From Candidatus Firestoneibacteriota bacterium (GTDB taxonomy: Bacteria > Oederibacteriota > D2-FULL-39-29), in assembly GCA_903928075.1 (NCBI GenBank), contig CAIYPD010000076.1:10292-74291 (forward strand): DNA of 64,000 bases. The letters are read 5' to 3'. Both the position numbers and the translations under genes were made by a program. Shown piece after piece: positions 4,442-50,336 of the stretch. Numbering within the stretch: position 1 is the stretch's first letter; every line of letters starts with the position of its first letter. The notes under the pieces were generated by a model that worked only from the letters and a program-made list of their open reading frames with translations, made no database searches and was not told where the DNA came from.

Positions 4442-4470
4442 AGTATAACACACCCAAGGGTTTATTTCAA
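4442..4470 (-). promoter_or_regulatory. sigma70-like promoter for galT (TTGAAA-N17-TATACT on the minus strand)
   Basis: Minus-strand read gives TTGAAA (4470-4465), a 17-nt spacer, then TATACT (4447-4442), about 40 nt upstream of the galT start. Confidence 0.45.
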
Positions 4471-4520
4471 TTTGTAAAAGGCGTTATCAAAGTAATGCCT
4501 CAGTTTCGGGTCACATTATA

Positions 4521-4579
4521 ATGTAGTTGCCTGATTTATCAGGCATTTTTAAAGCGCCCAATGAATTGGGCAACTACAT
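4521..4579 (-). promoter_or_regulatory. nested inverted-repeat element at the 3' end of the URO-D-like gene (outer 11-bp arms enclosing two 7-bp hairpins)
   Basis: Outer arms ATGTAGTTGCC (4521-4531) and GGCAACTACAT (4569-4579). Inner hairpins GCCTGAT-TT-ATCAGGC and GCCCAAT-GA-ATTGGGC. No U-tract follows, so it is not a canonical intrinsic terminator. Confidence 0.4.
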
Positions 4580-5692: not shown

Positions 5693-5711
5693 AATATATC
5701 CTTTTCCTCCG

Positions 5712-5800
5712 CTTCTCCGCCAAAAAGCGTTGGCGGATTTCGCAATGCTCAACTTCTCATTATTCATCTTGTTTTTCTTCTATCTATTGCTCCATTGCTC
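5712..5800 (-). repeat. conserved ~90-bp 5' leader, copy A (about 90% identical to copy B at 16942-17037), containing a CCGCCAA..TTGGCGG hairpin and a CAATAGATAGAAG motif
   Basis: By-eye alignment to 16942-17037. On the sense strand it carries ATGAATAATGAGAAGTTGAGCATTGCGAAATCCGCCAACGCTTTTTGGCGGAGAAGC. Confidence 0.7.
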
Positions 5801-6339
5801 TATTTTTCTATTTCATAAATAGCAGCCCTTGTCATCCGGCTTACCATCTCTTCTTTTCCGTTTATGTAAGCTTGAAGGTTATTTTTATATTTTGCTGCCA
5901 GCGTTTTTTTATAAAGGGAAAGTTTTTCAGCCACCTTAGGATGCGTCTCCAAATACTTTCTAAAAGCAAGATGGCGTTTTAACTCCCCGCTGTCGCTTTG
6001 ACAAACATACATGTGATGTTTAGGGAGGGTGTTTTTCCGGGTCTCATCCTTAAGGTCAAAGGCTTCTCTTCCGGGAATTCCAAGGTTTCCTTGATGAACA
6101 TATCCCAGAATGCTAAGTTTTTGAAGTATTTCAGGAAAACTGCCGGGCTTTATCACGATATCAATGTCAATTATGGGTTTTGCAGTCATTCCGCTTACAG
6201 AAGTACTGCCTATATGCTCTATTCTTAGAAAGGAATTCCCCAGCCCCTCCGCAAGGAAATCTTTTACAGACTCAAACCATTTTGCCCATTCCGGATTATA
6301 ATCCTCAACCAGCATCATTATCCTTTTTTTAATTATCAT
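5800..6339 (-). CDS. GrpB family protein (UPF0157, nucleotidyltransferase-fold)
   Basis: IEHIGSTSV motif. KPIIDIDIV. About 175 aa, typical GrpB length. Confidence 0.7.
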   Translation of the reverse strand: MIIKKRIMMLVEDYNPEWAKWFESVKDFLAEGLGNSFLRIEHIGSTSVSGMTAKPIIDIDIVIKPGSFPEILQKLSILGYVHQGNLGIPGREAFDLKDETRKNTLPKHHMYVCQSDSGELKRHLAFRKYLETHPKVAEKLSLYKKTLAAKYKNNLQAYINGKEEMVSRMTRAAIYEIEK

Positions 6340-6400
6340 TGTTAATATATAGGTTCAACGATTTTGTTTCGTATTTCGAATTTAGTGCTTCGAATTTGCT

Positions 6401-7618
6401 TTATCGTGGCCCCACGGTAAGTAACTTCATCCTCTCCTTCACAAAAAGCCTTTCGGCAAACTCCATCAAATCTTCTTTTTTTATCTTTTCTATCTCAGCC
6501 ATAATCCCGTCAAGATCCAAAAACTTCTCTTTATAGAATTCCTGTTTCAAAAGCCGGGTCATACGGTTGGTTGTGTTTTCCATACTTAGAATATAACTGC
6601 CTTTTATCTGCTGTTTTATCTTGGTGAGTTCTTTGTCTTTAATCCCGGTTTTCATCTTTAAAAGCTCAATATTAACGACTTCCAGAAGTTCCGCAAGTTT
6701 TTCCCTGTCTGTTGCGGCATAGACAAAAATAATACCGGAGTCGGAATAAGAATCGGCGTGCGAACTTATGGAATAGCAGAGACCGCGTTTTTCGCGAACC
6801 TCCTGAAAGAGATGAGAAGACATGGAGCCGCCGAGTATTTCGTTCATCACGAGAAGCTTATATCTGTCCTTATGCCTGAAGGATAAGCCTTCAGTCCCGA
6901 GACAGACATGCACCTGCTCGAGCTTCCGATCTATTTCTTTATCGTTAAAATCATACTCCGGAGGGAGTGTTTTAATAGTGCTGCCACTCTTTTTCCAGGA
7001 GCCAAAGTATTTCTCCGTCAGAGCGTAGAACTCTTCCTGCTTAACATTGCCCGCCGCTGAAATTATGGCGTTCTCCGGGGAATAAAATCTTTTATAATAA
7101 TTTCCAACTTTATTTTGACTGAAACTGTTTACCGTGCCTTCGTAACCGAGAATAGGATGGCCCAGAGGATGCCCGCCATAAAGCCCTTCAATAAAAGTAT
7201 CAAAAGTAAATTCGTCCGGCGAATCCAGATACATCTTGATTTCTTCAAGAACAACGCTTTTTTCCCGGAGAATTTCTTTTTCGGCAAAAGAAGGTTTGAG
7301 AATAATCTCAGAAAGGAGTTTCATAACTTTGGGAAGATATTCATCAACCATTCTTACATAAAAACAGGTATATTCTCTGGAAGTAAAGGCGTCAATGGAA
7401 GCGCCCAGGAGGTCAAAACCTTCGGCGATATCAAAAGCGGAGAGCTTCTCGTTGCCTTTAAAGACCATATGCTCAATAAAATGAGAAGAGCCTTCCTCGC
7501 CTTTTGTTTCGTAACGGGAACCGGATTTTATCAGGAGGCCTAAAGAAACCGACCTGACATGCGCAAGTTCTTCTACATGCGCAGTCAGGCCGGAGGCTAA
7601 TACTCTTCTAGAATGCAT
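6401..7618 (-). CDS. M16 family zinc peptidase (insulinase-like)
   Basis: Inverted zinc-binding motif HFIEHMVFKG (HxxEH). 405 aa. Confidence 0.8.
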   Translation of the reverse strand: MHSRRVLASGLTAHVEELAHVRSVSLGLLIKSGSRYETKGEEGSSHFIEHMVFKGNEKLSAFDIAEGFDLLGASIDAFTSREYTCFYVRMVDEYLPKVMKLLSEIILKPSFAEKEILREKSVVLEEIKMYLDSPDEFTFDTFIEGLYGGHPLGHPILGYEGTVNSFSQNKVGNYYKRFYSPENAIISAAGNVKQEEFYALTEKYFGSWKKSGSTIKTLPPEYDFNDKEIDRKLEQVHVCLGTEGLSFRHKDRYKLLVMNEILGGSMSSHLFQEVREKRGLCYSISSHADSYSDSGIIFVYAATDREKLAELLEVVNIELLKMKTGIKDKELTKIKQQIKGSYILSMENTTNRMTRLLKQEFYKEKFLDLDGIMAEIEKIKKEDLMEFAERLFVKERMKLLTVGPR

Positions 7619-7621
7619 AAT

Positions 7622-9724
7622 CTACTTTCCAGCAGAAGGACCCTTATCACTCATTAAAGCTTTTCTCGAAAGTTTGATTTTTCCGGTTTTTTCATCGATG
7701 CCGATGACTTTCACCGTCACAATATCGCCCTCTCTTACTACATCCTCAACTCTTTTGACTCTGGTCAAATCAAGTTCAGAGATGTGGCATAAACCGTCCT
7801 GGCCCGGGAAAATCTCTATAAAAGCCCCGAACTCGGCAACTTTTTTAACCGGACCCGTATAAGTGGCGCCCAGTTCTGCTTCCCTGCATATTTCCTTGAT
7901 ACGGTCGATCGCCGCTTGAAGGGCTACGCCGTCGGCAGAAGCTACATGCACCGTGCCGTCGTTATCCACATCTATCTTGGCGCCGGTCTCAAGGATAATC
8001 TTCTTTATTATCTTGCCCGCAGGTCCGATCAAATCTTTAATTTTGTCTAAGTGTATCTTCAGGGTGACTATTCTCGGCGCAAAGCTCGAAAGGTCTGCTC
8101 TGGGTGAACTGATAGAGGAAAGCATTTTCTCAAGAATAATCGCTCTGGCATCTTTTGCCTGGGAGAGAGATTTTTCTATTATCTCGTCAGAAATACCTTC
8201 GACTTTCATGTCCAGCTGGATAGCGGTAATGCCTTTTGCAGTGCCTGCTACTTTAAAATCCATATCTCCGTAATGATCTTCTATCCCCGCGATATCAGTG
8301 AGCGTAACCCAGCCGCTTTGTTCTTTGATCAAACCTATAGAGATACCCGCTACCGGACTCGTAATCGGAACACCCGCATCCATTAAAGACAATGTGGCCC
8401 CGCATACCGAAGCCATCGACGAAGAACCGTTGGATTCGACAATATCAGAAACCAGATTGACTACATAAGGGAACTTTTCCTGCGTAGGAATTACCGGAGC
8501 CAGGGCTTTTTCTGCCAGCGCGCCATGACCTACTTCTCTTCTGCCGACCCCGCGAACCGGTTTGGCTTCGCCTGTCGCAAACGGCGGGAAATTATAGTGG
8601 AGCATGTACTTCTTTTCCGCTTCGCCGGCTAAATCATCAAGATATTGTACATCGTCTTTGGTGCCGAGAGTTGTAACCACAAGCGCCTGGGTCTGGCCTC
8701 TTGAAAAGAGCGCTGATCCATGCGTCCGGGGCAAAAGACCGACTTCGCAGATTATAGGACGGATATCCGTCATACCTCTGCCGTCAGGCCTTACTTTGTT
8801 TTCGAGAATAGACTTTCTGACATTTTCTTCCTCTAGCTTTTCCAGGCAGCCGTTGATCTCGTTCTTGCCTGCCGGAAATTTTAAAAGAAGTGCCGCAAGC
8901 GTTTCTTCTTTTATTTTTTTAACTTCCGCCTGTCTTGCCAGTTTATCGGTGCCTTTTTCTATGGAAGCAAGTTTTCCGCCTGCCATTTCCTTTACAGTTT
9001 TTTCCAGCTCAGCGGTAACGGGCATATAGATATAGGTCTTGGTGGTTTTTTTAATCTTAGAGGCAAGTTCTTCCTGCATAGAAATAATCTCGTCGGCTAT
9101 CGGACGGCCGAATTTGATTGCCTCTAAAACTTCGGCTTCGGTAACTTCTTTACTGCCGCACTCAATCATAATAACACCGGCTTTAAGATAGACCACAAAA
9201 AGCTCAAGCGTGCTTTCTTTAAGCTGCGACATCGTCGGGAAGGCCACCAGACTGCCGCCGACTTTTCCTACTTTAACCGGCGCCACGGGCCCGTGAAACG
9301 GGATATTGGTACACATCAAAGAGGAAGAAGAACCGATAAGGGCCAGAACATCGGCTTCATTTTCTGCGTCATACGAAAGCACCGTATTAATTATCTGCAC
9401 TTCGTTAATAAGCGAAGACGGAAAGAGAGGCCTTATAGACCTGTCAGTTATCCTGGCATTAAGTGTTTCTAATTCCCGGGGCCGGCCTTCTCTTTTAAAG
9501 AATCCACCGGGTATTTTTCCGGCGGCATAAAATCTTTCGCGATATTCCACGGTCAAAGGAAAGAAATTTTGATCAGGCCTGGTCGTGTCCGAAGTACAGA
9601 CGGTCGAAAGCACCATTGTGTCGCCATATCTGACGGTCACAGAGCCCTCCGCTAATTTTGCAATCTTACCTGTAGTTATAGAGAGCTCCCTGCCCCCTAG
9701 CGTCCTCTTTATTACTATTTCCAT
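7622..9724 (-). CDS. pnp: polyribonucleotide nucleotidyltransferase (PNPase)
   Basis: 700 aa. Two RNase PH domains, KH and C-terminal S1 (GATYTGPVKKVAEFGAFIEI). Classic rpsO-pnp synteny. Confidence 0.95.
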   Translation of the reverse strand: MEIVIKRTLGGRELSITTGKIAKLAEGSVTVRYGDTMVLSTVCTSDTTRPDQNFFPLTVEYRERFYAAGKIPGGFFKREGRPRELETLNARITDRSIRPLFPSSLINEVQIINTVLSYDAENEADVLALIGSSSSLMCTNIPFHGPVAPVKVGKVGGSLVAFPTMSQLKESTLELFVVYLKAGVIMIECGSKEVTEAEVLEAIKFGRPIADEIISMQEELASKIKKTTKTYIYMPVTAELEKTVKEMAGGKLASIEKGTDKLARQAEVKKIKEETLAALLLKFPAGKNEINGCLEKLEEENVRKSILENKVRPDGRGMTDIRPIICEVGLLPRTHGSALFSRGQTQALVVTTLGTKDDVQYLDDLAGEAEKKYMLHYNFPPFATGEAKPVRGVGRREVGHGALAEKALAPVIPTQEKFPYVVNLVSDIVESNGSSSMASVCGATLSLMDAGVPITSPVAGISIGLIKEQSGWVTLTDIAGIEDHYGDMDFKVAGTAKGITAIQLDMKVEGISDEIIEKSLSQAKDARAIILEKMLSSISSPRADLSSFAPRIVTLKIHLDKIKDLIGPAGKIIKKIILETGAKIDVDNDGTVHVASADGVALQAAIDRIKEICREAELGATYTGPVKKVAEFGAFIEIFPGQDGLCHISELDLTRVKRVEDVVREGDIVTVKVIGIDEKTGKIKLSRKALMSDKGPSAGK

Positions 9725-9756
9725 TTTACCCTTTCCTTAGTTTTTGAACATCCATT

Positions 9757-9818
9757 GCGCAAAAACCTGCTAACTCAGGAGTTGCTTCGCGCCCCAGTGG
9801 CGCTTTCACTTGCAACTT
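9757..9818 (-). promoter_or_regulatory. rpsO terminator / pnp leader stem-loops in the rpsO-pnp spacer
   Basis: Sense strand shows an extended hairpin AGTTGCAAGTGAAAGCGCC-ACTGG-GGCGCGAAGCAACT, followed by CCTGAGTTAGCAGG and a TTTTTGC tract. This is the position of the RNase III-processed pnp leader in model bacteria. Confidence 0.5.
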
Positions 9819-9854
9819 CCTGCATATTTCTTTTTTTATTCAAAACGGCTTGTC

Positions 9855-10121
9855 TTACTTTCTCAACTTTAGACTATCAATAACACTTTTGTATTTTTCA
9901 AAATCTGTTTTCTTAATATAATCGAGTAAACTGCGTCTTTTGCCTACCAGCACAATAAGGCCTCTTCTGCTGCTATGGTCTTTTTTATGTATCTTCAAAT
10001 GCTCAGTCAGGTAGTTAATCCGGCCGGTCATAAGAGCCACCTGGACTTCCGAAGAGCCGGTGTCTTTTTCGTGCTTCCTGAACTTTCCAATCAGACTCGT
10101 TTTTACTTCTTTGTTCAACAT
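9855..10121 (-). CDS. rpsO: 30S ribosomal protein S15
   Basis: 88 aa. GSSEVQVALMTGRINYLTEHLKIHKKDHSSRRGL matches the S15 consensus. Confidence 0.95.
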   Translation of the reverse strand: MLNKEVKTSLIGKFRKHEKDTGSSEVQVALMTGRINYLTEHLKIHKKDHSSRRGLIVLVGKRRSLLDYIKKTDFEKYKSVIDSLKLRK

Positions 10122-10252
10122 ATTTTACTTCCTCCTTTGTTCGCGCGGCGACCAGTAAATCCCTGAGATACCTGCACCCGGTAAAAAAACCGTCTGCTCT
10201 TTCTTTCGTGATAAACCCAGTCTGCCCGTAGCGGAGCCTTTTTCCCCTACTA

Positions 10253-11725
10253 TTATATCCAGTAGTTAGGCGGCTCACTTGTAATTGTTATATTATGGGG
10301 ATGATTTTCCTGTAATCCCGCAGGTGTTATCCTTATAAATTCGGCTTTCGCCTGAAGTTCTTTGATAGAAGCCGCCCCGCAATAGCCCATCCCGCTGCGC
10401 AGTCCCCCGATAAGCTGAAGAACGCTTGCGGATATAGAACCCCTGTAAGGCACTCTGCCCTCAACCCCTTCAGGAACTAATTTTTGATTTTCAACATTAT
10501 CCTGAAAATATCTGTCTTTGCTGCCTTTTTTCATAGCGGCAAGAGAACCCATGCCGTGATACATCTTAAATCTTCTGCCTTCCAAAAATACGGTTTCCCC
10601 GGGCGCTTCGTCCGTTCCGGCAAACAGATTGCCTATCATGACGCTGGAAGCACCTACTGCGAGGGCTTTAGGAATGTCCCCCGAGTATTTAATACCGCCG
10701 TCGGCAATAATTGGGACCTTATATTTTTTTGCAACTTCACTGCACTCTTTTATAGCCGTAATCTGAGGTACACCGATACCGGCAATCACCCTCGTCGTGC
10801 AAATAGACCCGGGTCCCATCCCCACTTTCACCGCATCCGCTCCAATTTTACACAAATCTTTAGCCGCCTCAGCCGTCGCAACATTGCCGGCAATAAAATC
10901 CATTGCGGGATATTTTCTCCTGAGCTTCTTTAAAGTTTCCATAACATTTCTGGAGTGACCGTGAGCGGTATCAATGGCGATTACATCCACACCTGCTTTT
11001 ACCAGCTCGTCCGCTCTTTCTTCCGAATCTTTTGTCACCCCGATAGCCGCGCCGACCAAAAGCCGGCCCTGCTTATCCTTACAGGAAATAGGAAATTCCA
11101 ACCGTTTCTCTATATCCCGGATAGTGACCAACCCTTTAAGATTTCCGGCTTTATCAACCAGCGGCAGTTTTTCCACTTTATTTTTGTTTAATATCTCGAG
11201 CGCCTTTTGCAAAGAAACGCCTTCATGCGCGGTAATAAGATTTTGCCTGGTCATATGATCGCCGACCGTACCTTCAAATTTCTTAATGAACTTCAAATCC
11301 CTTCTTGTCAGTATTCCGACCAGCTTGCCGTTACCCGAACCGTCCTCGGTAACAGGAAAGCCGGAAATGCCCTTGCGCTTCATTATTTCGGAAGCTTCTC
11401 TTATGGACCGGGCCGGAGAAAGTGTGATAGGATGGTGAATAATCCCGCTCATGAATCTCTTAACTTTGTCCACCTGTTCGGCCTGCTCTTTCCAGGTTAA
11501 ATTTTTATGGATAATGCCGATACCGCCTTCCTGCGCTATAGCAATAGCCAGGCTGGCTTCGGTCACCGTGTCCATAGCCGCTGAAACAAGCGGAATATTA
11601 AGCTTGATATGTTTTGTTAGATAGGTCGAAACATCTACATCAGAATGCAAGAGCTCCGACCTCTGAGGAACAAGGAGGACATCATCAAAGGTTAACCCTG
11701 TTTTTCCGAACATATCTTTTGACAT
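10253..11725 (-). CDS. guaB: inosine-5'-monophosphate dehydrogenase
   Basis: 490 aa. [15 protein letters not shown]-terminus. Tandem CBS domains. Catalytic loop [11 protein letters not shown]. Confidence 0.95.
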
Positions 11726-12099
11726 TTTATTCTCCCAAACAATTAGCTCTTCTTTATAAACTATTTTATGAGCCTATCCCGGCTGCTGTGAAAGCTAAAG
11801 ACAGCCTGATAATATAGTATGTAACATAGTATTTTACATGAAAAAGACTATGTTTTCAATACAAATATGGGGGTATTTTGAGGCTTTGCGCTTAAAATCT
11901 AAAAGTGACCTGTTTTTAGTCTTCTAAATGTTGGAAAAGGACTTCAAATAACTTGTAAAATACTGCAATTTAAGCCCTTCTCAAGTAAACGGACCTTAAC
12001 TCAGGAAAAGACGAAAAAATCCCCCGCTAACAGAAATTAGGCAAAATAGTATCGACTTACTTGCTATCTAACCTACCGTAGGCTAAATGCCACTGTAAC

Positions 12100-14181
12100 T
12101 CATATTACAACTACGGCCGATTCTGCAGGCACAACTATCTTTCCGGAAGCATTTTTCCATTCCCCGCCGTCTACCAGCCTGTATTTTTTGAAGCTCTGAC
12201 CGTTATCCGCTTTTATTTTAAGTGAAACGGCTTTTTTATTATTGTAGTTGGCTATGGCCACTCCCAACTTTTTTGTTTTCCGGTTTATAAACGAAGTATA
12301 AGGGTGGTGCGCTTTGCCCTTGGCATCCTTGACCGAAACACCCACTGTATCCCTGAACTCGCCGTGCCAGAAATAATCCGCAAGCTCCGTCCGTAGAACA
12401 TCCATCTTCTTTGCATATTCTAGGGTGACAGGATAGTCATCAAGATGTCCTTTGAAGTTGTAAGGCTCATGGCTTATCACATATTTGTAGAGCAAGCACT
12501 GGTTAACCATATTCCGATCCTCAAAGCCCGTAATGGCGGTCATTATGTTGGCTGTCGGGAAAATATACCGTGATATGGGCGTATGTCCTCTTTCACCGGA
12601 TCTGAAATATGAATTCTCATATGTTTCAAATTCCCAGAAATATATAGCCTCACCCGCGTACAGGAAATCTTTATTTACTTTATCAGAAAGCTTTCTAAAG
12701 TTTTTAATGAGCTGCCTGTCATTCGCGTAAACCGGAGCGCCATACCTGTGGCCGTGGCTCATATCAAAGCAGGCCTGTGTACTGTGATGATGGAAACACT
12801 CATCAAAAAGTATCCCCGCCGCGCCAAGGTCCAATGTCTTTTGAAATTCTTTGTTACAGAGTTTCAGATATTCTTTATCCTGCAAACACATAGGAATAAG
12901 CCGTTTGGTATTGATATCCATCAACTGTGTCGCGGTCTGATATTGATAACCAGGATGATAATAATGATTCCCGTAGGGGTCTTTTATTGTGAGTTTTTTG
13001 TATTTCTTCACAAAGTCCTTGGTCCCCTGGTCCGCCCAGGTGAACTTCGCAAACAATATAACCTTTACTCCCATGGCGTGGATCTTTACGATGGCCTCTT
13101 TCAGTTCTTCAAAAGTCCCGAGCCTGGGGTCCGGGTCATGGGAAGGGTTGCCCTGGTCCTGTCCACCATCGTTCCAGCCGACAAGCTGAATTGCCGCAAT
13201 TCCGTGCCTGGCGCACTCTTCACCAACCTTCGGAAGGTCCTTGAACTTCATCCTGAGTTCATCCTCCGGAGAATTGATATGCAGCTGCAGCCAGGAATGA
13301 ACACCCTTAGCCCAGGAAGCTTTCTTTGATGTTTTAAGCCATTTACTCTGCCATTCTTTATAAATATCGGCGCCCACATGCCAGCCGCCCTTGTAAGCCT
13401 GAAGTACTATCGGTGTTAATTCTCTGGTCTCTCCCGGGTTTATGTAGGGAATATGTATCGCGCCGAAACGGGTATGAACATCCTTCCCCGCCATGGTAAG
13501 CGTTTCAGGAACTTTTTTTTCCATCTCACTGGACCAACCCGGCCTTAGCTCCGCGTGCCAGGCATGTGTATCACAGCTGTTGGTGGCCGGCCCCATGTAA
13601 AGCCCCTGGGTCGGAGTGCGAAGCAGTATAAAGACCTGGTAAGGGAAGTTACCGCATATCTGAATAGGGTAATCAACGCCAAAATACCCTTTTGTATTGA
13701 TAAATTCCGGCCAGAGACTCCAGTCATTTACGCTGGAATAGCCCGGAAAAGTAAATTTCGTCCACTCATCATTCTTCGGATGCTGAATATCCCCTATATA
13801 GGGGCAGTAGAAGTTCTCTACCATATATGAGGAGTCGTTCTTGATGGTTGAATAGTATATTGCCTGTTTGTCGGTGAGCTTTATCTTTATGGTGACCTTT
13901 ATTTTATGAAAACCTCCGAACTCCGAGGTAACGCCGTCCCAGACAAAGGTTATTTCCTTTTTATTCTTTGCGACCAGGCACGAAGTGACAGCCTGTTTTT
14001 CTCCAATCACATCATTATTTCTTTTTCCCGGGAGAGGCACCATCATCCTGAAAGAAAGTCCGAGTTGCGGCCTGTTAAGTAATTCCCACCCGGTCACTTT
14101 AGAAGTGAGGCGGGTAAGCGCGCCATTCACGGTATTAAACTCCATCTTCAAAGTCTTATTCTCAAGTGTTACTACCGGCAT
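12100..14181 (-). CDS. putative glycoside hydrolase (TIM-barrel, family unassigned), no signal peptide
   Basis: 693 aa. Central block GWNDGGQDQGNPSHDPDPRLGTFEELKEAIVKIHAMGVKVILF is typical of hydrolase-like (beta/alpha)8 barrels, with flanking beta-rich domains. SD AGGGGGAA upstream. Confidence 0.45.
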   Translation of the reverse strand: MPVVTLENKTLKMEFNTVNGALTRLTSKVTGWELLNRPQLGLSFRMMVPLPGKRNNDVIGEKQAVTSCLVAKNKKEITFVWDGVTSEFGGFHKIKVTIKIKLTDKQAIYYSTIKNDSSYMVENFYCPYIGDIQHPKNDEWTKFTFPGYSSVNDWSLWPEFINTKGYFGVDYPIQICGNFPYQVFILLRTPTQGLYMGPATNSCDTHAWHAELRPGWSSEMEKKVPETLTMAGKDVHTRFGAIHIPYINPGETRELTPIVLQAYKGGWHVGADIYKEWQSKWLKTSKKASWAKGVHSWLQLHINSPEDELRMKFKDLPKVGEECARHGIAAIQLVGWNDGGQDQGNPSHDPDPRLGTFEELKEAIVKIHAMGVKVILFAKFTWADQGTKDFVKKYKKLTIKDPYGNHYYHPGYQYQTATQLMDINTKRLIPMCLQDKEYLKLCNKEFQKTLDLGAAGILFDECFHHHSTQACFDMSHGHRYGAPVYANDRQLIKNFRKLSDKVNKDFLYAGEAIYFWEFETYENSYFRSGERGHTPISRYIFPTANIMTAITGFEDRNMVNQCLLYKYVISHEPYNFKGHLDDYPVTLEYAKKMDVLRTELADYFWHGEFRDTVGVSVKDAKGKAHHPYTSFINRKTKKLGVAIANYNNKKAVSLKIKADNGQSFKKYRLVDGGEWKNASGKIVVPAESAVVVI

Positions 14182-14249
14182 TTATTCCCCCTGTATACTT
14201 TTTTTTCTTATTTTGTGCTATTTCTCATTAGTCTTGTCATCTTGTCGTC

Positions 14250-15488
14250 TTACCCCTCCGTTATCTTCCTTACAATCCCCACCCACTTCTTCAATCTGGA
14301 AACATCGCCTTGAAGAGTCTCAACATCTTTTAATGTAATGTGCCAGTAACTTTCCTTGAAGGCGTCCTTTGCGTCAGTGATTATCCTTTTTATCCGGTCT
14401 TCATCCCAGGAGGTGCAGACCATATCGGTGGGATTGGGCCTGAAGGAACAGATGTAATCTTTTTTTATCTGTTCGGCGCATTTACGATAGTTAGCAACCG
14501 GCGTCACGGCAATGCTTCTCAAGTTCTTTACCTTCCGGAGCATATCTATTTTTTTTGTAAGATCCTCACAGCACCCGTAATGCGTCATCGCAAATTTTTC
14601 CATTATCGGCTGCTGGTACCGGAGCATAAATTCGTCATGAAACTCCGGCGAGACCAGCGTCAATTCCTGAGAGGCCATAAAGCCCCAGAGCTCTTTTCTC
14701 TTTGAGGGCGTATTGGGTTTGCGCCAGGGAAGCTCATTGCAATACGGCATTGCCTGGTTACCGCTCATGGTCAGCGTAAAATGCCCCGCCTCCTCCGCCT
14801 CCTGCTGATTCGTCAGTATCCCATCCCGCATAAAAGCCAGGAGTTGATGCAGTTCCTTCGGACTCTCGTACATATCCAGCATCATCTGCTCAAGCCCCCG
14901 GATATTAGCCAGGTCAGTGGAAATATCCCCCATAAAGCCAAGATACGCAGGGCCCCTTATTATATCTATCGGAATTATTTTACCTATCGCTTCGGCAAGT
15001 CTGTTATATTTTCTTTTTGTATCCTCTTCGTCTATCGCATGGTGCAGGGCTTTGATTTTTCCAATATCCTTCCAGTCTTTTATAATAGCATCAAGATGAA
15101 ATGCGCCGCCTTTCTGGGCAGACTTCGTCATCTGCCGTTCAACTCCCCAGTGATTATCCCAGGTCCCTTCCCGGGTTCCGGCAAGTTCTATCCAGGGCTC
15201 ATTTACGGCATCATGCCCGGTTTCTTCTGATAAAAGCCGAAATTTAAATGTCCGTTCGTAACCCCTGAAAAACTCATCTTCACACGCCATGTTTTTATCA
15301 GAAAACATCTCCTTACACCAGGCCTCCCAAAATCCGTTATTCAATAGGATGGGCGGCCGCGTTTTCTTTTTATTAAAATGGTCGCTCCAGAGCTTCCTTC
15401 TTTCTTCCTGAATAGGCTTAGTCGCAATTTCCATATATTGCCTGGCAAGGTCCTGTACTATTTTAATATCTTTTTGATTAGTAGGCAT
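14250..15488 (-). CDS. uncharacterised ~415-aa paralog family 'c' protein (copy 1 of 3), partner of the URO-D-like gene
   Basis: Shares with 50337-51608 and 57450-58706 an N-terminal P(V/I)Q(K/E)E...LW motif. Also shares a C-terminal YGCCE(D/P)L(T/D)KKI...R(K/S)I(A/S)V(T/S)P(V/W)A...DY(I/V).S and (H/P)(I/V)EFI(L/I)KD. SD AAGGAGA upstream. Confidence 0.6.
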   Translation of the reverse strand: MPTNQKDIKIVQDLARQYMEIATKPIQEERRKLWSDHFNKKKTRPPILLNNGFWEAWCKEMFSDKNMACEDEFFRGYERTFKFRLLSEETGHDAVNEPWIELAGTREGTWDNHWGVERQMTKSAQKGGAFHLDAIIKDWKDIGKIKALHHAIDEEDTKRKYNRLAEAIGKIIPIDIIRGPAYLGFMGDISTDLANIRGLEQMMLDMYESPKELHQLLAFMRDGILTNQQEAEEAGHFTLTMSGNQAMPYCNELPWRKPNTPSKRKELWGFMASQELTLVSPEFHDEFMLRYQQPIMEKFAMTHYGCCEDLTKKIDMLRKVKNLRSIAVTPVANYRKCAEQIKKDYICSFRPNPTDMVCTSWDEDRIKRIITDAKDAFKESYWHITLKDVETLQGDVSRLKKWVGIVRKITEG

Positions 15489-15852
15489 CTAATCTCCTTT
15501 GTATAGATAACAAGACCAAATGTACAGCAAACAGCTAACGGATGTACGGCTAATACCTTCTTTCTTTTGCTGTCTGCCTTGCATCCAATCCTCCGCTCTT
15601 CTATCTTTCACTTTGTACCTTGTCCTCCAAAGAACTTCTTTGGAGAGATCTCGCCTAATGGCGGATACTTCGTACTTTGTACTCTTGTTATCTTGTATTC
15701 TTCTCTACTCTTGCCAACCCTCTCCGCCAAGTTTGCTTGGCGAGATCTCGCTGTAAGCGGACAACCATCCACTTTTCCGTCCTCAGTCCTCCGGCTTCTG
15801 GCCTCATGTTTTCACTCTTGCCAAGCCTCTAACCATCCAAACATCCAATCCT
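15489..15852. repeat. repeat-rich 364-bp spacer with palindromic REP/MITE-like units
   Basis: Perfect 10-bp-arm palindrome CTCCAAAGAA-C-TTCTTTGGAG at 15626-15646. Two copies of (palindrome)-AGATCTCGC-(TAATGGCGGA / GTAAGCGGACAACC). Internal direct repeats CATCCAATCCTC at 15581 and 15841. Related unit at 41481-41580. Confidence 0.7.
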
Positions 15853-16923
15853 CTATCTATACTTGCCGTAGTTCTTTGCTGTTTCATACATCGCGAGCAC
15901 ATTTTCTGTCGGCGAATTATCCTGCAGAGCGTGAGTAGGCGCAAAACAATAACCGCCGCCCGGCATCATAATATCCAGCGTTTTTTCACAATATTTTACG
16001 GTATCTTCAACCTTACCAAAAGCCACAGGTCCGGCCGTACTTATACAGCCGTGGAAAGCAAGACGCCCGCCGAATTTTTTCTTTAAATACTCGGGGGACA
16101 TATTTGCCGCTTCCGGCTGGAGGGTATCCACCACATTTATGCCCATCTCAATAAAATCTTCATAAGCCCAACTACTGCTACCGCAGGTATGAATCATCAC
16201 AGGAAGCTTAAAACTTTTAGCCATGTCTATTATTTTTTGATGAAAAGGCCTGATTGCTCTTCTATATAGTTCCAGGCTTATCATCGGCGCAATCTGGGTC
16301 CCCAGGTCTTCCCCCATCCATAAAAAATCTACAGCGCCCTTAGCGGCTTCAATGGTCCGTCTGGTTATTTCGAGGTTAATATCGACCCTGCGCTTTGCCA
16401 GAAGCAGCCCCGCCGGTTCATCCGTCATAAGGTCAACTAAAACCTGTTCCATTCCCCGTACCATTCCGCTTGAATTAATAATGTCGCCGAGTCCGGCTCC
16501 GCCCACATATAGAGCATACTCTTTATTCTTTTTGCAATGTTCCTGTACCCCGGAAAAATCAAATTTGTCCGGATCCGGCATCGGCCAGTTAGCCACCTCT
16601 TCTTCCGTGGCATTCTGTAGCGGGAAATCACAAAAATCAAGGTAACCTCCGCTCTCATGTTCTATCCAGCGTGTATGCATACCCCAGTCGTTTACCTTCA
16701 CCCCTCTTTCAGGTATATCCTTATGAAGTTTTGGCCCAAGATATTTTGTCACTCCAACCCCGCGAAAATCCACGCCCAGCACATTTATGAGTTCATCTCC
16801 GTCTTTGACCTTAAAATGCTTTATAAGCCTCTCGTTTATGCCCGGATTGGCCGCGTAGTTTATCGGCACCCGGTCCGGTGTTCTATTCGCAAAAGTAGTG
16901 AGTACGCGTTCTTTAGAATTCAT
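15853..16923 (-). CDS. URO-D family protein, subfamily b (likely start at 16923, ORF track extends to 16953)
   Basis: MNSKERVLTTFANRTPDRVP family signature. HTCGSS (HxCG) segment. C-terminal MMPGGGYCFAPTHA. SD AAAAAGGAG 7 nt before the ATG. Confidence 0.8.
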   Translation of the reverse strand: MNSKERVLTTFANRTPDRVPINYAANPGINERLIKHFKVKDGDELINVLGVDFRGVGVTKYLGPKLHKDIPERGVKVNDWGMHTRWIEHESGGYLDFCDFPLQNATEEEVANWPMPDPDKFDFSGVQEHCKKNKEYALYVGGAGLGDIINSSGMVRGMEQVLVDLMTDEPAGLLLAKRRVDINLEITRRTIEAAKGAVDFLWMGEDLGTQIAPMISLELYRRAIRPFHQKIIDMAKSFKLPVMIHTCGSSSWAYEDFIEMGINVVDTLQPEAANMSPEYLKKKFGGRLAFHGCISTAGPVAFGKVEDTVKYCEKTLDIMMPGGGYCFAPTHALQDNSPTENVLAMYETAKNYGKYR

Positions 16924-16941
16924 TTTTCTCCTTTTTATCAG

Positions 16942-17037
16942 CTTCTCCGCCACAAAGTGTTGGCGGATTTCGCTATGCTCAACTTCTCATAATTCATCTT
17001 GTTTTTCTTCTATCTATTATCTATTGTTCCATTATTC
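16942..17037 (-). repeat. conserved 5' leader, copy B (paralog of 5712-5800)
   Basis: About 90% identity to copy A by eye. Sense strand encodes a 19-codon upstream ORF MNYEKLSIAKSANTLWRRS ending at a TGA just before the SD. Contains a CCGCCA..TGGCGG hairpin. Confidence 0.7.
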
Positions 17038-17289
17038 TACCCCGGGAGAAGGTATGGATGAGGGTAATGGTTTTCTAATCTCCATAAGAGTCGTAAAGGT
17101 CTATAAATGAAAACAATATATTTCAACGATTTTAGACCTTAAGAACCTTAAGAACCTTAAAAACTTTATAAACTTCTTTTTCCCTCTTTCCCCAATTGTA
17201 TCTATTTGGCCAGCCAATTGCAAGAATTTTACCTGACGGTTCACTTAAGAAATCCTGAATCAGGATAAACTTGATTTTAATAAAGCATA

Positions 17290-18813
17290 ATGTTATTATC
17301 CCTTATGATTAAGAACCCCAATGTCCTACTTATAACCACCGACCAGCAGAGATTTGATTCCATTGCCGCACTCGGAAACTCAAAGATAAAAACACCCAAC
17401 CTTGATAAACTTGTAAAAAACGGGGTGGCCTTCACGCGAGCTTATTCCTCATGTCCCGAATGCGTACCGGCAAGAATAACAATTAAAACCGGGATGCCGC
17501 CGTGGCGGAGCGGTTCTACTAACAACGGTGAGAAGATAAAACCAAACACCGATACCCTTATGTCAGTTTTAGCCAAAGGCGGCTACCACACCCAGGCCAT
17601 AGGCAAGATGCATTTTATTCCTACAAGAGCAAAATTCGGGTTCAAAGAGATGTGGCTTTCCGAGGAAGTACCGATAAAAGCAAGTGAGGATGAATTTTTA
17701 ACAGAACTTATAAAAAAAGGGTACGGCCACGCGGAAGAACCGCACGGAATGAGGAGCTTTCTATATTATGTACCGCAGGTCTCCCAGCTCCCCGAAAAAT
17801 TGCACACGACCGCCTGGACCGGAAGAAAGACCGTAGAATATTTAGCCCGGCGGAAGAAATCAAAGCAGCCGTTTTTTCTCTGGACTTCTTTTATCAAGCC
17901 GCATCCGCCCTTCGATCCGCCGGTGCCTTTTAACAGCATGTACAATCCGCTTGACATGGACCTTCCCATTCAAGAGAAAGACGCCGATAAAAATTACACC
18001 TTCTGGAATTACTGCCAGAACCGGTATAAATGGATGGAAAGTAACCGTAACGATGTCTTTAAACAGGCGCAAAAAGCTTTCTACTACGCCTGCATAAGTT
18101 TTGTCGACAAACAACTGGGCCTGATATTTGAGGCCTTGAAAAAGAACGGCCAGCTTAAAAATACGGTTATAGTTTTCACCGCCGACCATGGCGAATACCT
18201 CGGGGACCATTTCTGCTACGGCAAACGAGGCTTTCAGGATTCCGCGGCCAGGGTGCCTTTTATTATTTCCTACCCGGCCTATCTGCCTAAAAACAAAAGG
18301 GTTGAGGCGCCCGTCGGACACGCTGACATAATGCCGACTATCTTAAGCCTTTGTAATCTGGATTACAGAAAACCGCAGTACGGCTGGGATCTGACGCCTA
18401 AAATGAAAAATCCCTTTTCCAGCGCGAGGAAATATTTCTACGCCCAGTACAACAGAAAAGGTTATGCTATTTATATGTGCATGGATTCAAAATGGAAATA
18501 TATCTATGATGTGGCCGGAAAAAGAGAAATATTCTATAACTTTATAAAGGACCCGAAAGAAATAACAAATCTGGCCGGAAAGACTAAATACAGGAAAGAG
18601 AAATTAAGATTAAAGCAGGAACTAATAAAGCACTTTAAAGAACAGGGGAATTTTGAGGCAATAAAAGGAACTGAGTTCCGGTCCTACGCCAATAAGAACT
18701 TGAAACGCTATAAGAACCTGTCCGGCATAAATAATAATTCGAAAGACGGCCGGCTCTTCCAGTATGCGCTTTGGACCAATAGGAACAGTGACATGTGGAG
18801 CTCTTTAATGTAG
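17290..18813 (+). CDS. Cys-type sulfatase (arylsulfatase family), no signal peptide
   Basis: LLITTDQQRFD metal-binding N-terminus. Formylglycine motif C-V-P-A-R in SSCPECVPARITIKTG. 507 aa. Confidence 0.9.
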   Translation: MLLSLMIKNPNVLLITTDQQRFDSIAALGNSKIKTPNLDKLVKNGVAFTRAYSSCPECVPARITIKTGMPPWRSGSTNNGEKIKPNTDTLMSVLAKGGYHTQAIGKMHFIPTRAKFGFKEMWLSEEVPIKASEDEFLTELIKKGYGHAEEPHGMRSFLYYVPQVSQLPEKLHTTAWTGRKTVEYLARRKKSKQPFFLWTSFIKPHPPFDPPVPFNSMYNPLDMDLPIQEKDADKNYTFWNYCQNRYKWMESNRNDVFKQAQKAFYYACISFVDKQLGLIFEALKKNGQLKNTVIVFTADHGEYLGDHFCYGKRGFQDSAARVPFIISYPAYLPKNKRVEAPVGHADIMPTILSLCNLDYRKPQYGWDLTPKMKNPFSSARKYFYAQYNRKGYAIYMCMDSKWKYIYDVAGKREIFYNFIKDPKEITNLAGKTKYRKEKLRLKQELIKHFKEQGNFEAIKGTEFRSYANKNLKRYKNLSGINNNSKDGRLFQYALWTNRNSDMWSSLM

Positions 18814-18881
18814 CAGGTGCCGTCCTTAAATTATAGTCGAAAGAAGTTTAATAAGTATCATTCCCGCCGCAAAAAGCAGTA

Positions 18882-18974
18882 TCAGCGAAAAATAAAACCT
18901 CCTCCGATGTCAAACATCCCTGACAAAAAACCCACGGCCAGTCCTAAGACCACAAACCCGAAATATTCCAGCAT
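18882..18974 (-). pseudogene. 30-codon remnant of a TauE/SafE-type exporter N-terminus, translationally coupled to the sulfatase stop
   Basis: Minus-strand ATG at 18974-18972 overlaps the sulfatase TAA (TAATG). Encodes MLEYFGFVVLGLAVGFLSGMFDIGGGFIFR then a stop. Compare the intact TauE at 35121-35912 (GIFGGMFGLGGGIIMIPLL). Confidence 0.35.
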
Positions 18975-20452
18975 TATGTTACCTGCCTGTCTACCGGCCT
19001 GCCTCCAAATTTCTTCAATGTCAGAGCGTGATTCTTTCTTCCTGTCTCAGAAAGCCTTTTACAGTAGGCTTCGATTTCTCCTCTGGCGTGGTAAGGCCCG
19101 CCTTCTTCCATTACCGTATCAAGAGGATCAACACCGCTGGTAGAAGTTCTCATCATCTCCTCGCGCCATTTTGTAAGCTTGACCAGGCCTTCGCTGCTTT
19201 TCTGAGGATTTTGTTTTGATATTTCTTTAAGCAGATGCGGGTCTTTCTTAAAATCAAAGAGCATATGCTCCGGAAAATTTTTCAGCCCTGTATGATAGGT
19301 TTTCATAAACAAAAAATCCCCGAAGATAACGGCACGCTGACAGCTCCAGGCGCACTGACTTACTACAATAAAATCTCTGGAATATTCTTTGCCTTTTTTC
19401 AGTTCCCCGGCAAAACTTTCCCCGTCCCACTTAGCAGGTACTTTAAGCTTTAAAAGTTCCAGTATAGTAGCGCCGATGTCCACCTGATAATGCAGACCCT
19501 TATCCACCCCGGGTTTAAGCAGGCCCGGCCATTTTAAAATGAAGGGCACCCGAGAAGTAATAGTATCGGCGGTCTGATGGTCACCGTATATATTAAATTC
19601 CCCCTGGTTCTCCCCATGATCGGAACTTATCATGATAACCGTATCTTCAAAAACTCCGTGTTTTTTTAACAGGTCTATTATTTTACCGGCATAATGATCC
19701 GCGTAATTTATTCCAAGGTCATAACCGTCTATCCACTGTTTATAATCCTCAAGCGACTTTATCTCGTTAGGCATTTCAAGTAACTCCGGGCCTTTAGGCA
19801 CCCCGCCGCTAAAACCATTTCTGTCCCGGGCGCTGTAGGGACCGTAGCCTTCATAATGTTCTTTAATGATCTTCTCGTTTATCCAGGCCGGAGGCGGCTC
19901 ATTCTTAAAAGGATTTCCGAATTCCTTTGGCGTTTTATAAACCGTGTGAGGATCCCACATATTCACATGCAGGAACCAGTTGTCGGTTTTCGCATTTTTA
20001 TTCAACCACTCCTCTGCGTAAGGGTAGATTTCATCGGCTCTTTCACTGCCGTGTTTACCGGTATTGAACATCTCTTTAAATCCGGAATAGAACCACCAGG
20101 AAGCGTGTCTTTCGGCAAACGGGCTGACGGATACGGTATGCAGGCCGCTTTTCTTCAGAGTAGTCACAAACGATTGGAACTCAGGTGAGTCACTAAAACC
20201 CCTGTTTTTACCTTCCGGGTAAGGGTCGGCGTTAAGCCCACCGTGATTTACCACCCCCGAATGTATTCCGAACCTTCCTCCGAAAAAAGAACTGCGGGAA
20301 GGCAGACAGGGCGCATCGGAAGCAAAACACTTTTCAAACCTGACCCCGCTTTCAGCTACCTTATCAATATTCGGGGAGGTTTTCCTGTGATAACCGTAAC
20401 AGCCGAGGTGGTCGGCTCTAAGCGTATCTATATCAAGGTAGAGTATTCTCAT
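18974..20452 (-). CDS. Cys-type sulfatase, no signal peptide
   Basis: ILYLDIDTLRADHLGCYG. Formylglycine motif C-L-P-S-R in DAPCLPSRSS. 492 aa. Confidence 0.9.
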   Translation of the reverse strand: MRILYLDIDTLRADHLGCYGYHRKTSPNIDKVAESGVRFEKCFASDAPCLPSRSSFFGGRFGIHSGVVNHGGLNADPYPEGKNRGFSDSPEFQSFVTTLKKSGLHTVSVSPFAERHASWWFYSGFKEMFNTGKHGSERADEIYPYAEEWLNKNAKTDNWFLHVNMWDPHTVYKTPKEFGNPFKNEPPPAWINEKIIKEHYEGYGPYSARDRNGFSGGVPKGPELLEMPNEIKSLEDYKQWIDGYDLGINYADHYAGKIIDLLKKHGVFEDTVIMISSDHGENQGEFNIYGDHQTADTITSRVPFILKWPGLLKPGVDKGLHYQVDIGATILELLKLKVPAKWDGESFAGELKKGKEYSRDFIVVSQCAWSCQRAVIFGDFLFMKTYHTGLKNFPEHMLFDFKKDPHLLKEISKQNPQKSSEGLVKLTKWREEMMRTSTSGVDPLDTVMEEGGPYHARGEIEAYCKRLSETGRKNHALTLKKFGGRPVDRQVT

Positions 20453-41480: not shown

Positions 41481-41580
41481 CTGCTAAGCATCTCCGCCAA
41501 ATTTGCTTGGCAAGATATCGTCCACCTTTGGTGAGATCTCGTCCGCCTAATGGCAGGACGGACCGTAGGCGGACAACCCC
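41481..41580. repeat. REP/MITE-like palindromic unit related to those at 15626-15770
   Basis: CTCCGCCAAATTTGCTTGGCAAGATATCG ... GAGATCTCGTCCGCCTAATGGCAGGACGGACCGTAGGCGGACAACCCC. Shares CTCC-(hairpin)-AGATCTCGC-TAATGGCGGA/GCGGACAACC with the 15.6-kb spacer. Confidence 0.6.
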
Positions 41581-50088: not shown

Positions 50089-50336
50089 TATTTTCGCCTC
50101 TTTAACCGGAGTTACAAGGCCGACTAAACTTAACAAGTTGATTATATAGCCTACAAGCTAAAAGTCAAGAAGAGAAGCGCCCTAATAAGACGGTTATAAG
50201 GTTGGATGTTTGGAGGCTTGGCGAGAGCAAAAAACAGAAAAAAGTTTGTTGCATACACTTTTTTGTGATCATAAAGCATTCGGCAGTATTTTGTCCTCTG
50301 ACTGCTGTCCATTTTTCCAAACAACCAAACCCCTGT

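What the first reader, a model, noticed from the sequence alone, without database searches (positions are those of the whole stretch)
15489..15852. 364-bp spacer inside module 1 packed with palindromic REP/MITE-like units, echoed at 41481-41580
The spacer contains a perfect 10-bp-arm palindrome (CTCCAAAGAA-C-TTCTTTGGAG) and two composite units of the form CTCC-(7-bp-stem hairpin)-AGATCTCGC-TAATGGCGGA/GTAAGCGGACAACC. It also has internal direct repeats (CATCCAATCCTC twice). A third, longer composite of the same blocks sits between the CPA2 antiporter and FecR-like genes. This is a dispersed small-repeat family that may act as a transcriptional insulator or an RNA processing site between the two genes of the module.
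Basis: seen in the sequence. Interest (0 to 1): 0.5.

Follow-up and report, generated by a model that had tools for sequence, protein, structure and literature searches.

The report
REP-like palindromic repeats between genes
The 364-bp gap between two genes really does hold copies of a small hairpin-forming repeat that recurs elsewhere, the kind of "junk-like" intergenic repeat (REP/BIME-like) many bacteria carry, here in an uncultured Firestonebacteria-like genome; it is a sound but fairly ordinary finding.

Summary
Window 15623-15665 (unit A), 15720-15766 (unit B) and 41493-41578 (unit C) share one architecture: TCCGCC, hairpin, GGCGAGATCTCGCC, hairpin, GGCGGAC(AACC). GAGATCTCG occurs 4 times against 0.28 expected. 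A covariance model built without unit C finds it, and finds nothing else in the 64 kb.

The organism is probably Candidatus Firestonebacteria. Related units occur in two other metagenome contigs, one Verrucomicrobiota MAG and a phage-like contig with two copies. None occur in about 105 kb from other Firestonebacteria-like genomes, including the orthologous region upstream of CPA2. Every well-supported copy is intergenic, and the neighbouring genes are functionally unrelated. Hairpin stems differ between copies but stay complementary. The units sit in a mosaic of further small modules.

There is no Rfam match, no U-tract terminator, no predicted promoter in the spacer, no target-site duplication and no transposase gene in the window.

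Best reading: a lineage-restricted, mosaic REP/BIME/REPIN-like palindromic repeat. It inflated the spacer of one of three paralogous gene pairs to 364 nt, against 87 nt and a 4-nt overlap in the other two. Any effect on the transcript, such as stem-loops that buffer mRNA decay, is inferred and not shown. This is a new member of a known kind, of modest interest.

The parts
15489..15852 (.). 364-bp spacer between two co-directional minus-strand genes. It is pyrimidine-rich on the + strand and purine-rich on the gene-sense strand, and is built from small repeated modules.
   Evidence: Identical in three metagenome contigs of the same species. Not a detectable pseudogene of the extra genes found at this position in an 83%-identity relative. 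Both strands fold better than shuffles, z = -4.3 and -6.4.
15623..15665 (+). Unit A: TCCTCC, then the 10-bp-arm perfect hairpin (15625-15645), AGATCT (15646-15651), the hairpin CGCC-TAAT-GGCG (15652-15663), and GA.
   Evidence: I5, D4. R1 hit 15622-15671, 55 bits. The TCCTCC/GGAGAG change is compensatory relative to the canonical TCCGCC/GGCGAG.
15720..15766 (+). Unit B, the canonical form: CTCT + core 15724-15762 (CCGCCAAG-TTTG-CTTGGCGAG-ATCT-CGC-TGTAA-GCG-GAC) + AACC.
   Evidence: R1 hit 15719-15769, 79 bits. 88-92% identical to the units in L130 and L126.
41493..41578 (+). Unit C, a composite of three nested TCCNCC-loop-GGNGAG modules (41493-41520, 41521-41541, 41542-41567), ending in GGCGGACAACC.
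   Evidence: R1 hit 41489-41581, E = 2e-10; this unit was not in the training set. It lies between the divergent CPA2 antiporter gene (39304-41286, -) and the FecR-like gene (41719-42798, +), and upstream of the predicted promoter at 41627-41654.
15708..15723 (+). Flank module F (CTCTTGCCAACCCTCT), immediately 5' of the unit B core.
   Evidence: (D3). F-like sequence also precedes the cores in L126, L130 and unit C.
15815..15838 (+). Second F module, joined directly to AACCATCC with no core. It looks like a paralogous 'empty' version of unit B's flanks.
   Evidence: The boundary is ambiguous by about 8 nt because the flanks are 8-nt periodic.
50196..50240 (-). Third F-type module (GCTCTCGCCAAGCCTCC + AAACATCC...), in inverted orientation and without a core, in another intergenic spacer.
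15582..15593 (+). 12-nt direct repeat CATCCAATCCTC (copy 1). Copy 2 is at 15842-15853. The pair brackets the ~260-nt block that holds units A and B.
   Evidence: (D1). Weakly significant.
15853..16953 (-). Upstream gene of the pair: URO-D-family (MtaA-like) protein. The real start is probably at 16923 (356 aa).
14250..15488 (-). Downstream gene of the pair: a 412-aa protein, a distant member of the URO-D / cobalamin-independent methionine synthase family. It has two paralogues in the window.

Best explanation
The units belong to a lineage-restricted family of mosaic, hairpin-forming intergenic repeats of the REP/BIME/REPIN kind, in a Firestonebacteria-like genome.

The core is about 40-80 nt and consists of two side-by-side hairpins built from four related hexamers: TCCGCC ... 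GGCGAG-AT-CTCGCC ... GGCGGA. Variable, self-complementary inserts extend the stems. The core travels with short flank modules (CTCTTGCCAAGCCTCT and 8-nt AAnCnTCY repeats).

Shown:
- The family exists and recurs only in intergenic DNA next to unrelated genes.
- It is absent from related genomes.
- It keeps its hairpins through compensatory changes.
- It accounts for the oversized spacer of this gene pair.

Inferred:
- It spreads as DNA by a hairpin-dependent process: single-strand transposition by a trans-acting enzyme such as a RAYT/IS200-type protein, or recombination or duplication.
- It has no dedicated regulatory job.
- Where it lies inside an operon transcript, as in this spacer where no promoter or terminator is predicted, it is co-transcribed. 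Its stem-loops then most likely act as E. coli REPs do, as barriers to 3'-to-5' exonucleases that partly uncouple the stability of the upstream and downstream cistrons.
For: - Recurrence beyond chance.
- Related units in L126 (two in tandem) and L130 at 84-92% identity.
- All Firestonebacteria-type and phage copies are intergenic and lie between Pfam- or PHROG-supported genes of unrelated function. These pairs are URO-D/412-aa, CPA2/FecR, methyltransferase/flavodoxin, GntR/AHSA1, and phage genes.
- There were no hits in about 105 kb from at least five other Firestonebacteria-like genomes. This includes the orthologous CPA2 upstream region and the orthologous URO-D...412-aa interval, which in the 83% relative holds two extra genes instead.
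- Stems covary between copies: GCCAAG/CTTGGC, AAAGAA/TTCTTT, AAA/TTT, AACAG/CTGTT, AGGCAGAA/TTCTGCCT; also TCCGCC/GGCGAG versus TCCTCC/GGAGAG versus TCCACC/GGTGAG.
- The organisation is mosaic. The F module occurs both with and without a core.
- Only this one of the three paralogous gene pairs has a long spacer: 364 nt against 87 nt and a 4-nt overlap.
- There is no Rfam match and no promoter or terminator in the spacer.
- REP and REPIN properties are as described in PMC3116915 and PMC3337134.
Against: - Copy number is unknown and may be low. An exact-pattern scan of the metagenome collection found only two related contigs, and the species-representative genome scan found only one distant hit.
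- No RAYT, IS200/IS605 or other transposase gene is present in the window or in the fetched loci.
- There is no conserved GTAG-type tetranucleotide.
- There is no orthologous filled-versus-empty site pair, so mobility is not demonstrated.
- The same invariant centre, GGCGAGATCTCGCC, occurs in distant lineages and in a phage. That is unusual for REPs, which are normally species-specific.
- The proposed effect on mRNA is untested.
Confidence: 0.55

Rival explanations
1. A selected cis-acting RNA element read on the gene-sense strand (5'-GUCCGCC..GGCGAGAUCUCGCC-long hairpin-GGCGGAG-3'). For example, a processing or stabilising module, or a two-hairpin processive-antitermination (put-like) RNA placed in leaders and intercistronic spacers.
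For: - At all five loci with co-directional flanking genes (window A/B, L126, L130, two phage copies), the long hairpin is on the 3' side in the gene-sense reading.
- The gene-sense strand folds slightly more stably in 7 of 8 units because G-U pairs replace C-A mismatches.
- The spacers are purine-rich on the sense strand.
- One phage copy precedes a hairpin followed by a T6 run (reading by eye).
- Stems covary.
Against: - Unit C lies in a divergent intergenic region upstream of the only predicted promoter.
- The element is absent from orthologous positions in relatives, so it is not a conserved regulator of these genes.
- Neighbouring genes are unrelated.
- The orientation bias is only 5 of 5, and in the window it is confounded with replication or gene-strand bias.
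- The element is almost symmetric, and the Verrucomicrobiota copy is ambiguous or opposite in orientation.
- There is no Rfam family.
Confidence: 0.2
2. A miniature derivative of a single-strand (IS200/IS605- or RAYT-type) transposon, that is a PATE/REPIN in the strict sense. It would carry left- and right-end hairpins and insert strand-specifically without target duplication.
For: - Two similar hairpins in direct order.
- No target-site duplication at the apparent boundaries CTCT|core|AACC.
- The F module occurs with and without the 39-nt core.
- All five hairpin modules in the window have the same absolute orientation.
- Copies in a phage and in distant phyla suggest horizontal movement.
Against: - No Y1-transposase, TnpB or RAYT gene is present in 64 kb plus about 60 kb of unit-bearing loci. 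The Pfam scan of the window is sound, but the tblastn used queries recalled from memory and is weak.
- The hairpins abut the inferred ends, unlike the IS608 geometry (own knowledge).
- The F module precedes the core at four loci, so it may be part of the element rather than the target.
- No orthologous empty site was found.
Confidence: 0.15
3. A double-stranded DNA operator: an array of four GGCGRR half-sites around the 14-bp palindrome GGCGAGATCTCGCC, bound by a dimeric or tetrameric regulator.
For: - The central palindrome is perfect and is conserved in distant lineages.
- Unit C lies upstream of divergent promoters.
Against: - The spacing between half-sites varies from 3 to 25 nt, and the inserts are always self-complementary. 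That fits extruded hairpins, not a fixed protein footprint.
- Most copies lie between co-directional genes, directly after stop codons.
- Neighbouring genes are unrelated, and the element is absent from orthologous promoters in relatives.
Confidence: 0.05
4. No entity at all: chance palindromes in low-complexity DNA left behind by gene loss.
For: - The relative L136 has two extra genes at this position.
- The spacer is low-complexity, with weak 7-8-nt periodicity.
Against: - Motif counts lie far above shuffles.
- The covariance model recovers an untrained copy 26 kb away, and copies in other contigs.
- No residual protein similarity to the lost genes remains.
Confidence: 0.03

Closest known systems
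REP / BIME elements of Enterobacteria and REPINs of Pseudomonas (PMC3116915, PMC3337134)
   Same: - Short imperfect palindromes restricted to extragenic DNA, often directly after stop codons.
- They occur singly, in tandem and in composite or mosaic clusters.
- Each unit is a doublet of two related palindromes.
- Distribution is lineage-specific.
- They are co-transcribed hairpins inside operons.
   Different: - No RAYT gene was seen, and there is no conserved GTAG-like tetranucleotide.
- Copy number is unknown and possibly low.
- The two half-palindromes abut with no spacer.
- The same core occurs in a phage and in other phyla.
BOX elements of Streptococcus pneumoniae and ERIC/IRU elements (own knowledge)
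   Same: Modular build: a core plus separable flank modules that also occur alone. Intergenic, transcribed and able to form stable secondary structure.
   Different: No sequence similarity. The modules here are much smaller. BOX and ERIC elements are found in Firmicutes and Enterobacteria.
MITEs such as Correia/NEMIS elements of Neisseria (own knowledge)
   Same: Small, non-coding, intergenic, with inverted termini (TCCGCC ... GGCGGA). They can be co-transcribed and alter mRNA processing.
   Different: - No target-site duplication and no long terminal inverted repeats.
- No parent IS was identified.
- The core, at 39-82 nt, is at or below the usual MITE size.
PATEs / IS200-IS605 end-derived miniature elements (own knowledge)
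   Same: Two subterminal-type hairpins in direct order, no target duplication, and a possible strand-specific orientation.
   Different: No TnpA or TnpB gene nearby, no defined cleavage or guide tetranucleotides, and the hairpins sit at the very ends.

Membership tests
REP/BIME/REPIN | Short (about 20-40 nt) imperfect palindromes, often paired as doublets | tested here: met
   Two adjacent hairpins per unit, built from TCCGCC/GGCGAG and CTCGCC/GGCGGA.
REP/BIME/REPIN | Confined to extragenic DNA | tested here: met
   All window, L126, L130 and phage copies lie between Pfam- or PHROG-supported genes. The L117 copies in a high-GC contig may be coding or chance and are not counted.
REP/BIME/REPIN | Many copies per genome (tens to hundreds) | tested here: inconclusive
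   Three units in 64 kb. The rest of the genome is not available. Exact-pattern scans of public collections found only two related contigs and one distant MAG.
REP/BIME/REPIN | A cognate RAYT (Y1/HUH transposase) gene, typically flanked by the repeats | tested here: inconclusive
   None among about 50 window proteins scanned with Pfam, nor in the gene tables of the loci. A tblastn with remembered queries was negative. A single-copy gene elsewhere in the genome cannot be excluded.
REP/BIME/REPIN | Conserved tetranucleotide (GTAG-type) at the foot of the hairpin | tested here: not met
   The loops and feet read TGTAA, TAAT, GTA, GCA and GAA. No invariant GTAG is present.
MITE | Terminal inverted repeats plus a target-site duplication | tested here: not met
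   Only 6-nt inverted termini are present. The flanks CTCT | core | AACC are not duplicated.
MITE | Insertion polymorphism (filled versus empty sites) | tested here: inconclusive
   The paralogous F module occurs with and without the core. Strains of the same species are 99.8-99.96% identical and all carry the units. More distant relatives lack the units, but their spacers cannot be aligned.
Intrinsic (Rho-independent) terminator | GC-rich hairpin followed by a U-tract | tested here: not met
   No terminator-like site on either strand in 15300-16000 or 41200-41800.
Any Rfam RNA family | Covariance-model match | tested here: not met
   No match at gathering score in the window. No match at E <= 10 in the spacer. 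Only chance-level matches near unit C. No match on the units in L020, L124, L126 or L130.
Integron attC site | RYYYAAC ... GTTRRRY paired termini at the 3' end of cassette genes | tested here: not met
   By inspection, the termini CTCTCCGCC ... GGCGGACAACC do not fit the consensus. The outer flanks are not complementary, and the neighbouring genes are housekeeping genes.

The most novel reading that the evidence does not exclude
The invariant TCCGCC / GGCGAGATCTCGCC / GGCGGAC framework has freely covarying side hairpins. It is shared by a Firestonebacteria-like genome, a Verrucomicrobiota MAG and a phage-like contig with two copies. It could therefore be a cross-phylum, horizontally carried structured module rather than a private REP. 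It can fold either as two hairpins or as a four-way junction. It might be the recognition structure of an as yet unidentified single-strand DNA transposase or recombinase, or a portable cis-acting RNA such as an antitermination or stability cassette that phages also use.
Probability: 0.15. Interest if true: 0.6.

Novelty: new member of a known kind. Interest (0 to 1): 0.3.

Why it matters
It adds a repeat family to a candidate phylum (Firestonebacteria) for which none has been described. It also explains why one of three paralogous gene pairs has an abnormally long spacer.

Such repeats break metagenome assemblies and can serve as strain markers. They can also change the relative expression of genes in an operon.

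The one feature that goes beyond routine is that the same core occurs in a phage and in another phylum. If that holds up in a proper census, it would point to a mobile structured module with a conserved partner protein.

Tried and rejected
- **Rfam**, at gathering and at permissive thresholds, on the window, the spacer, the unit C region and four unit-bearing loci: nothing on the units.
- **Promoter and terminator scans** of both loci: nothing in the spacer. A scan of 1-20000 was close to the random expectation and was not informative.
Nine soil hits were a single coding sequence matching by chance.
- **High-GC viral hits** L142-L148 look like coding or chance occurrences of GGCGAGATCTCGCC.
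- **BLAST of the unit** against plasmids, and of the phage element against phages: nothing informative.
- **Literature search** for the core sequence: no paper.
- **tblastn with IS200 TnpA and RAYT sequences** recalled from memory: no hit. This is a weak test.
- **Test of the spacer as a pseudogene** of the two genes present in a relative: no similarity.
- **Attempt to extend the window** through edge proteins: no exact product on record.
- **A relative of the phage's neighbouring gene** (L151, 48% identity) has no element.
- **The attC-site, operator and terminator readings** were rejected for the reasons given in the membership and rival sections.

Full report
**Observation**

The region 15489-15852 is the spacer between two minus-strand genes. 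The upstream gene is a URO-D-family protein at 15853-16953, whose start is more likely at 16923. The downstream gene encodes a 412-aa protein at 14250-15488 with no Pfam hit. Homologues of it are annotated as uroporphyrinogen decarboxylase / cobalamin-independent methionine synthase family.

- The perfect palindrome is at 15625-15645.
- The two units share TTGG(A/C)GAGATCTCGC.
- The 12-nt direct repeat occurs twice.
- The longer composite lies at 41493-41578, between the CPA2 antiporter and the FecR-like gene.

GAGATCTCG occurs four times against 0.28 expected. A covariance model built from units A and B plus three units from other contigs was run over the whole window with filters off. It recovers unit C, which was not in the training set, at E = 5e-6 to 2e-10. 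Apart from weaker reverse-strand readings of the same units, it recovers nothing else below E = 0.1. The window therefore holds exactly three units, at two intergenic loci.

**Anatomy**

The canonical unit, seen as unit B and in L130, is CTCT-CCGCC-AAG-TTTG-CTT-GGCGAG-ATCT-CGCC-GTA-GGCGGAC-AACC. It is built from four related hexamers: b1 TCCGCC, b2 GGCGAG, b3 CTCGCC and b4 GGCGGA.
- These can pair as two side-by-side hairpins (b1:b2 and b3:b4).
- Alternatively they can pair as an outer helix plus the central 14-nt palindrome (b1:b4 and b2:b3).

Across ten units the second arrangement is almost perfectly Watson-Crick (114 of 120 positions). However, the only variation seen supports the side-by-side hairpins: TCCTCC/GGAGAG in unit A and TCCACC/GGTGAG inside unit C are both compensatory for b1:b2.

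Where it is long enough to fold, the insert between b1 and b2 is a perfect hairpin of differing sequence: AAG/CTT, AAA/TTT, AAAGAA/TTCTTT, AACAG/CTGTT, AGGCAGAA/TTCTGCCT. Loops are not conserved. The whole element is nearly symmetric about AGATCT, so the model also scores the reverse strand. Both strands of the spacer fold better than shuffles.

The units are embedded in a mosaic of smaller modules.
- CTCTTGCCAAGCCTCT ('F') directly precedes the unit B core at 15708.
- F recurs at 15815 joined straight to AACCATCC with no core.
- F recurs a third time, inverted and without a core, at 50212.
- F-like sequence also precedes the cores in L126, L130 and unit C, and the flanks are 8-nt periodic (AAnCnTCY).

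F with and without the 39-nt core looks like a filled and an empty site without target duplication. Because F accompanies the core at four loci, it may instead be part of a modular element. I count this as suggestive only.

**Organism and distribution**

The 412-aa protein and the CPA2 antiporter have their best named relatives in Candidatus Firestonebacteria, at 69-73% identity. Gene order downstream of CPA2 is conserved with Firestonebacteria contigs.

The spacer is 100% identical in three metagenome contigs of the same species. Those strains are 99.8-99.96% identical overall, so this says nothing about constraint.

These are 84-92% identical to unit B.

Viral-contig scans found a phage-like contig (L020, identical to L053; PHROG hits) with two copies 1.7 kb apart. 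The second copy was detected only by the model. They also found ambiguous copies in a high-GC contig (L117) that may be coding.

In about 105 kb from at least five other Firestonebacteria-like genomes there is no hit. This includes the orthologous CPA2 upstream region and the orthologous URO-D...412-aa interval. At the window's density about five hits would be expected, so the family is lineage-restricted.

**Context**

Units lie next to functionally unrelated genes:
- URO-D-like / 412-aa
- CPA2 / FecR-like
- SAM-methyltransferase / flavodoxin
- GntR regulator / AHSA1
- phage genes

. This argues against a regulon-specific element.

At the five loci with co-directional neighbours, the CTCCGCC...GGCGGACAACC reading is antisense to the genes. 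The gene-sense strand folds slightly better in 7 of 8 units. This bias is weak, for three reasons:
- It rests on 5 of 5 loci only.
- In the window it is confounded with the predominance of minus-strand genes.
- The element is almost symmetric.

The Verrucomicrobiota copy is opposite or ambiguous in orientation. Unit C lies upstream of the only sigma-70-like promoter predicted for the FecR-like gene, and 205-294 nt upstream of the CPA2 start, so it need not be transcribed.

The spacer has no predicted promoter or terminator, which is consistent with co-transcription of the two genes.

The window contains three paralogous pairs of a URO-D-like gene and a 412-like gene. Their spacers are 364 nt, 87 nt and a 4-nt overlap. 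In the 83%-identity relative the corresponding interval holds two further genes, of which the spacer keeps no trace. The long spacer is therefore a derived, repeat-filled state.

**Interpretation**

The best-supported reading is a lineage-restricted, mosaic REP/BIME/REPIN-like palindromic repeat family (definitions in PMC3116915 and PMC3337134).
- Met: short paired palindromes, strictly extragenic, clustered and mosaic, lineage-specific.
- Not met or not testable: a RAYT gene (none in the window), a conserved GTAG-type tetranucleotide, and high copy number.
- MITE criteria (terminal inverted repeats plus target duplication) are not met.

How the family spreads is inferred, not shown. So is what it does in the URO-D / 412-aa transcript, where it most likely forms stem-loops that hinder 3'-to-5' exonucleases as E. 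coli REPs do (own knowledge).

The rivals are a selected sense-strand RNA element, a strict IS200/RAYT-derived miniature transposon, a DNA operator, and chance. They are weighed in the structured fields.

The feature that does not fit a routine REP is that the invariant framework is shared with a phage and with another phylum. I give a 0.15 probability that this reflects a portable structured module with a conserved partner.

**Verdict**

The 'dispersed small-repeat family' interpretation is supported within the limits of the available sequence. The MITE label and the insulator or processing function are not established. This is a new member of a known kind, of modest interest.

Noticed in passing
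window 16924-17039 and 5768-5810 (minus-strand sense); L126 4495-4607: A second repeat family. It is a ~100-nt 5'-leader cassette (...AATAGATAATAGATAGAAGAAAAACAAGATGAATTATGAGAAGTTGAGCATAGCGAAATCCGCCAACGCTTTGTGGCGGAGAAGC...AAAGGAG) placed directly upstream of the start codons of two URO-D-family genes in the window and of a flavodoxin gene in L126. Identity is 85-95%. It ends in a hairpin, TCCGCCAAC...GTGGCGGAG, related to the first hairpin of the units, in the same orientation relative to the downstream gene. It contains a short ATG-initiated reading frame whose end is not conserved. No Rfam match.
   Followed up: partly
window 33433-33495, 37469-37520, 47762-47814; also 17136-17168: Tandem arrays with a 10-nt period (CCTTTACAGA on +, GGTCTGTAAAG on the gene-sense strand; 5-6 copies) in three intergenic regions, plus a 9-nt array (ACCTTAAGA) upstream of the URO-D-like gene. 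The latter is also present at the orthologous place in relative L136. These may be phased upstream promoter or regulator-binding arrays.
   Followed up: no
L001 7010-8288 (corresponds to window ~17195-17200): One strain (JGI 3300022555) carries a 1.28-kb IS3-family insertion (HTH_Tnp_1 + rve genes) upstream of the URO-D-like gene. It is absent from the window and from the other contigs, so it is an insertion polymorphism.
   Followed up: partly
window 16249-16305 versus L003 9231-9240: Strain L003 has a 57-nt stretch of the URO-D-like gene replaced by 10 nt, which splits the gene into two called ORFs of 219 and 114 aa.
   Followed up: no
window 14250-16953, 50337-52805, 56449-58706; also 4574-5767 and 60364-61365: Three paralogous pairs of a URO-D-family gene and a 412-423-aa distant URO-D-like gene (26-28% identity among the large proteins), plus two further URO-D-family genes. 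This is an unusual local concentration of this family, next to sulfatases, a radical-SAM/SPASM maturase, a fucosidase and a DUF6259 protein.
   Followed up: partly
whole window: GATC is under-represented (105 against about 237 expected from base composition), as is AGATCT (9 against about 19). Three of the nine AGATCT sites are inside the units.
   Followed up: no
L020 994-1062 and 2690-2756 (= L053 1508-1566 and 3201-3254): A phage-like contig (tail assembly chaperone, DNA methyltransferase and phrog_2045 hits) carries two copies of the same two-hairpin framework with quite different stem inserts. Both are intergenic and antisense to the flanking genes. A 48%-identity relative of the neighbouring gene (L151) has none.
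   Followed up: partly
window 802-869: An 11/22-nt tandem repeat (GTTTCTTGTGC, 4.5 copies) inside the ORF 622-2043 (Schlafen AlbA_2 / HATPase_c_4 / HTH protein).
   Followed up: no
window 15505-15515 / 15683-15693, and 52740-52860: The word CTTGTTATCTAT just upstream of the ribosome-binding site of the 412-aa gene recurs upstream of the URO-D-like gene 51696-52805. It also forms an 11-nt perfect inverted repeat with a copy inside the spacer, 167 nt away.
   Followed up: no
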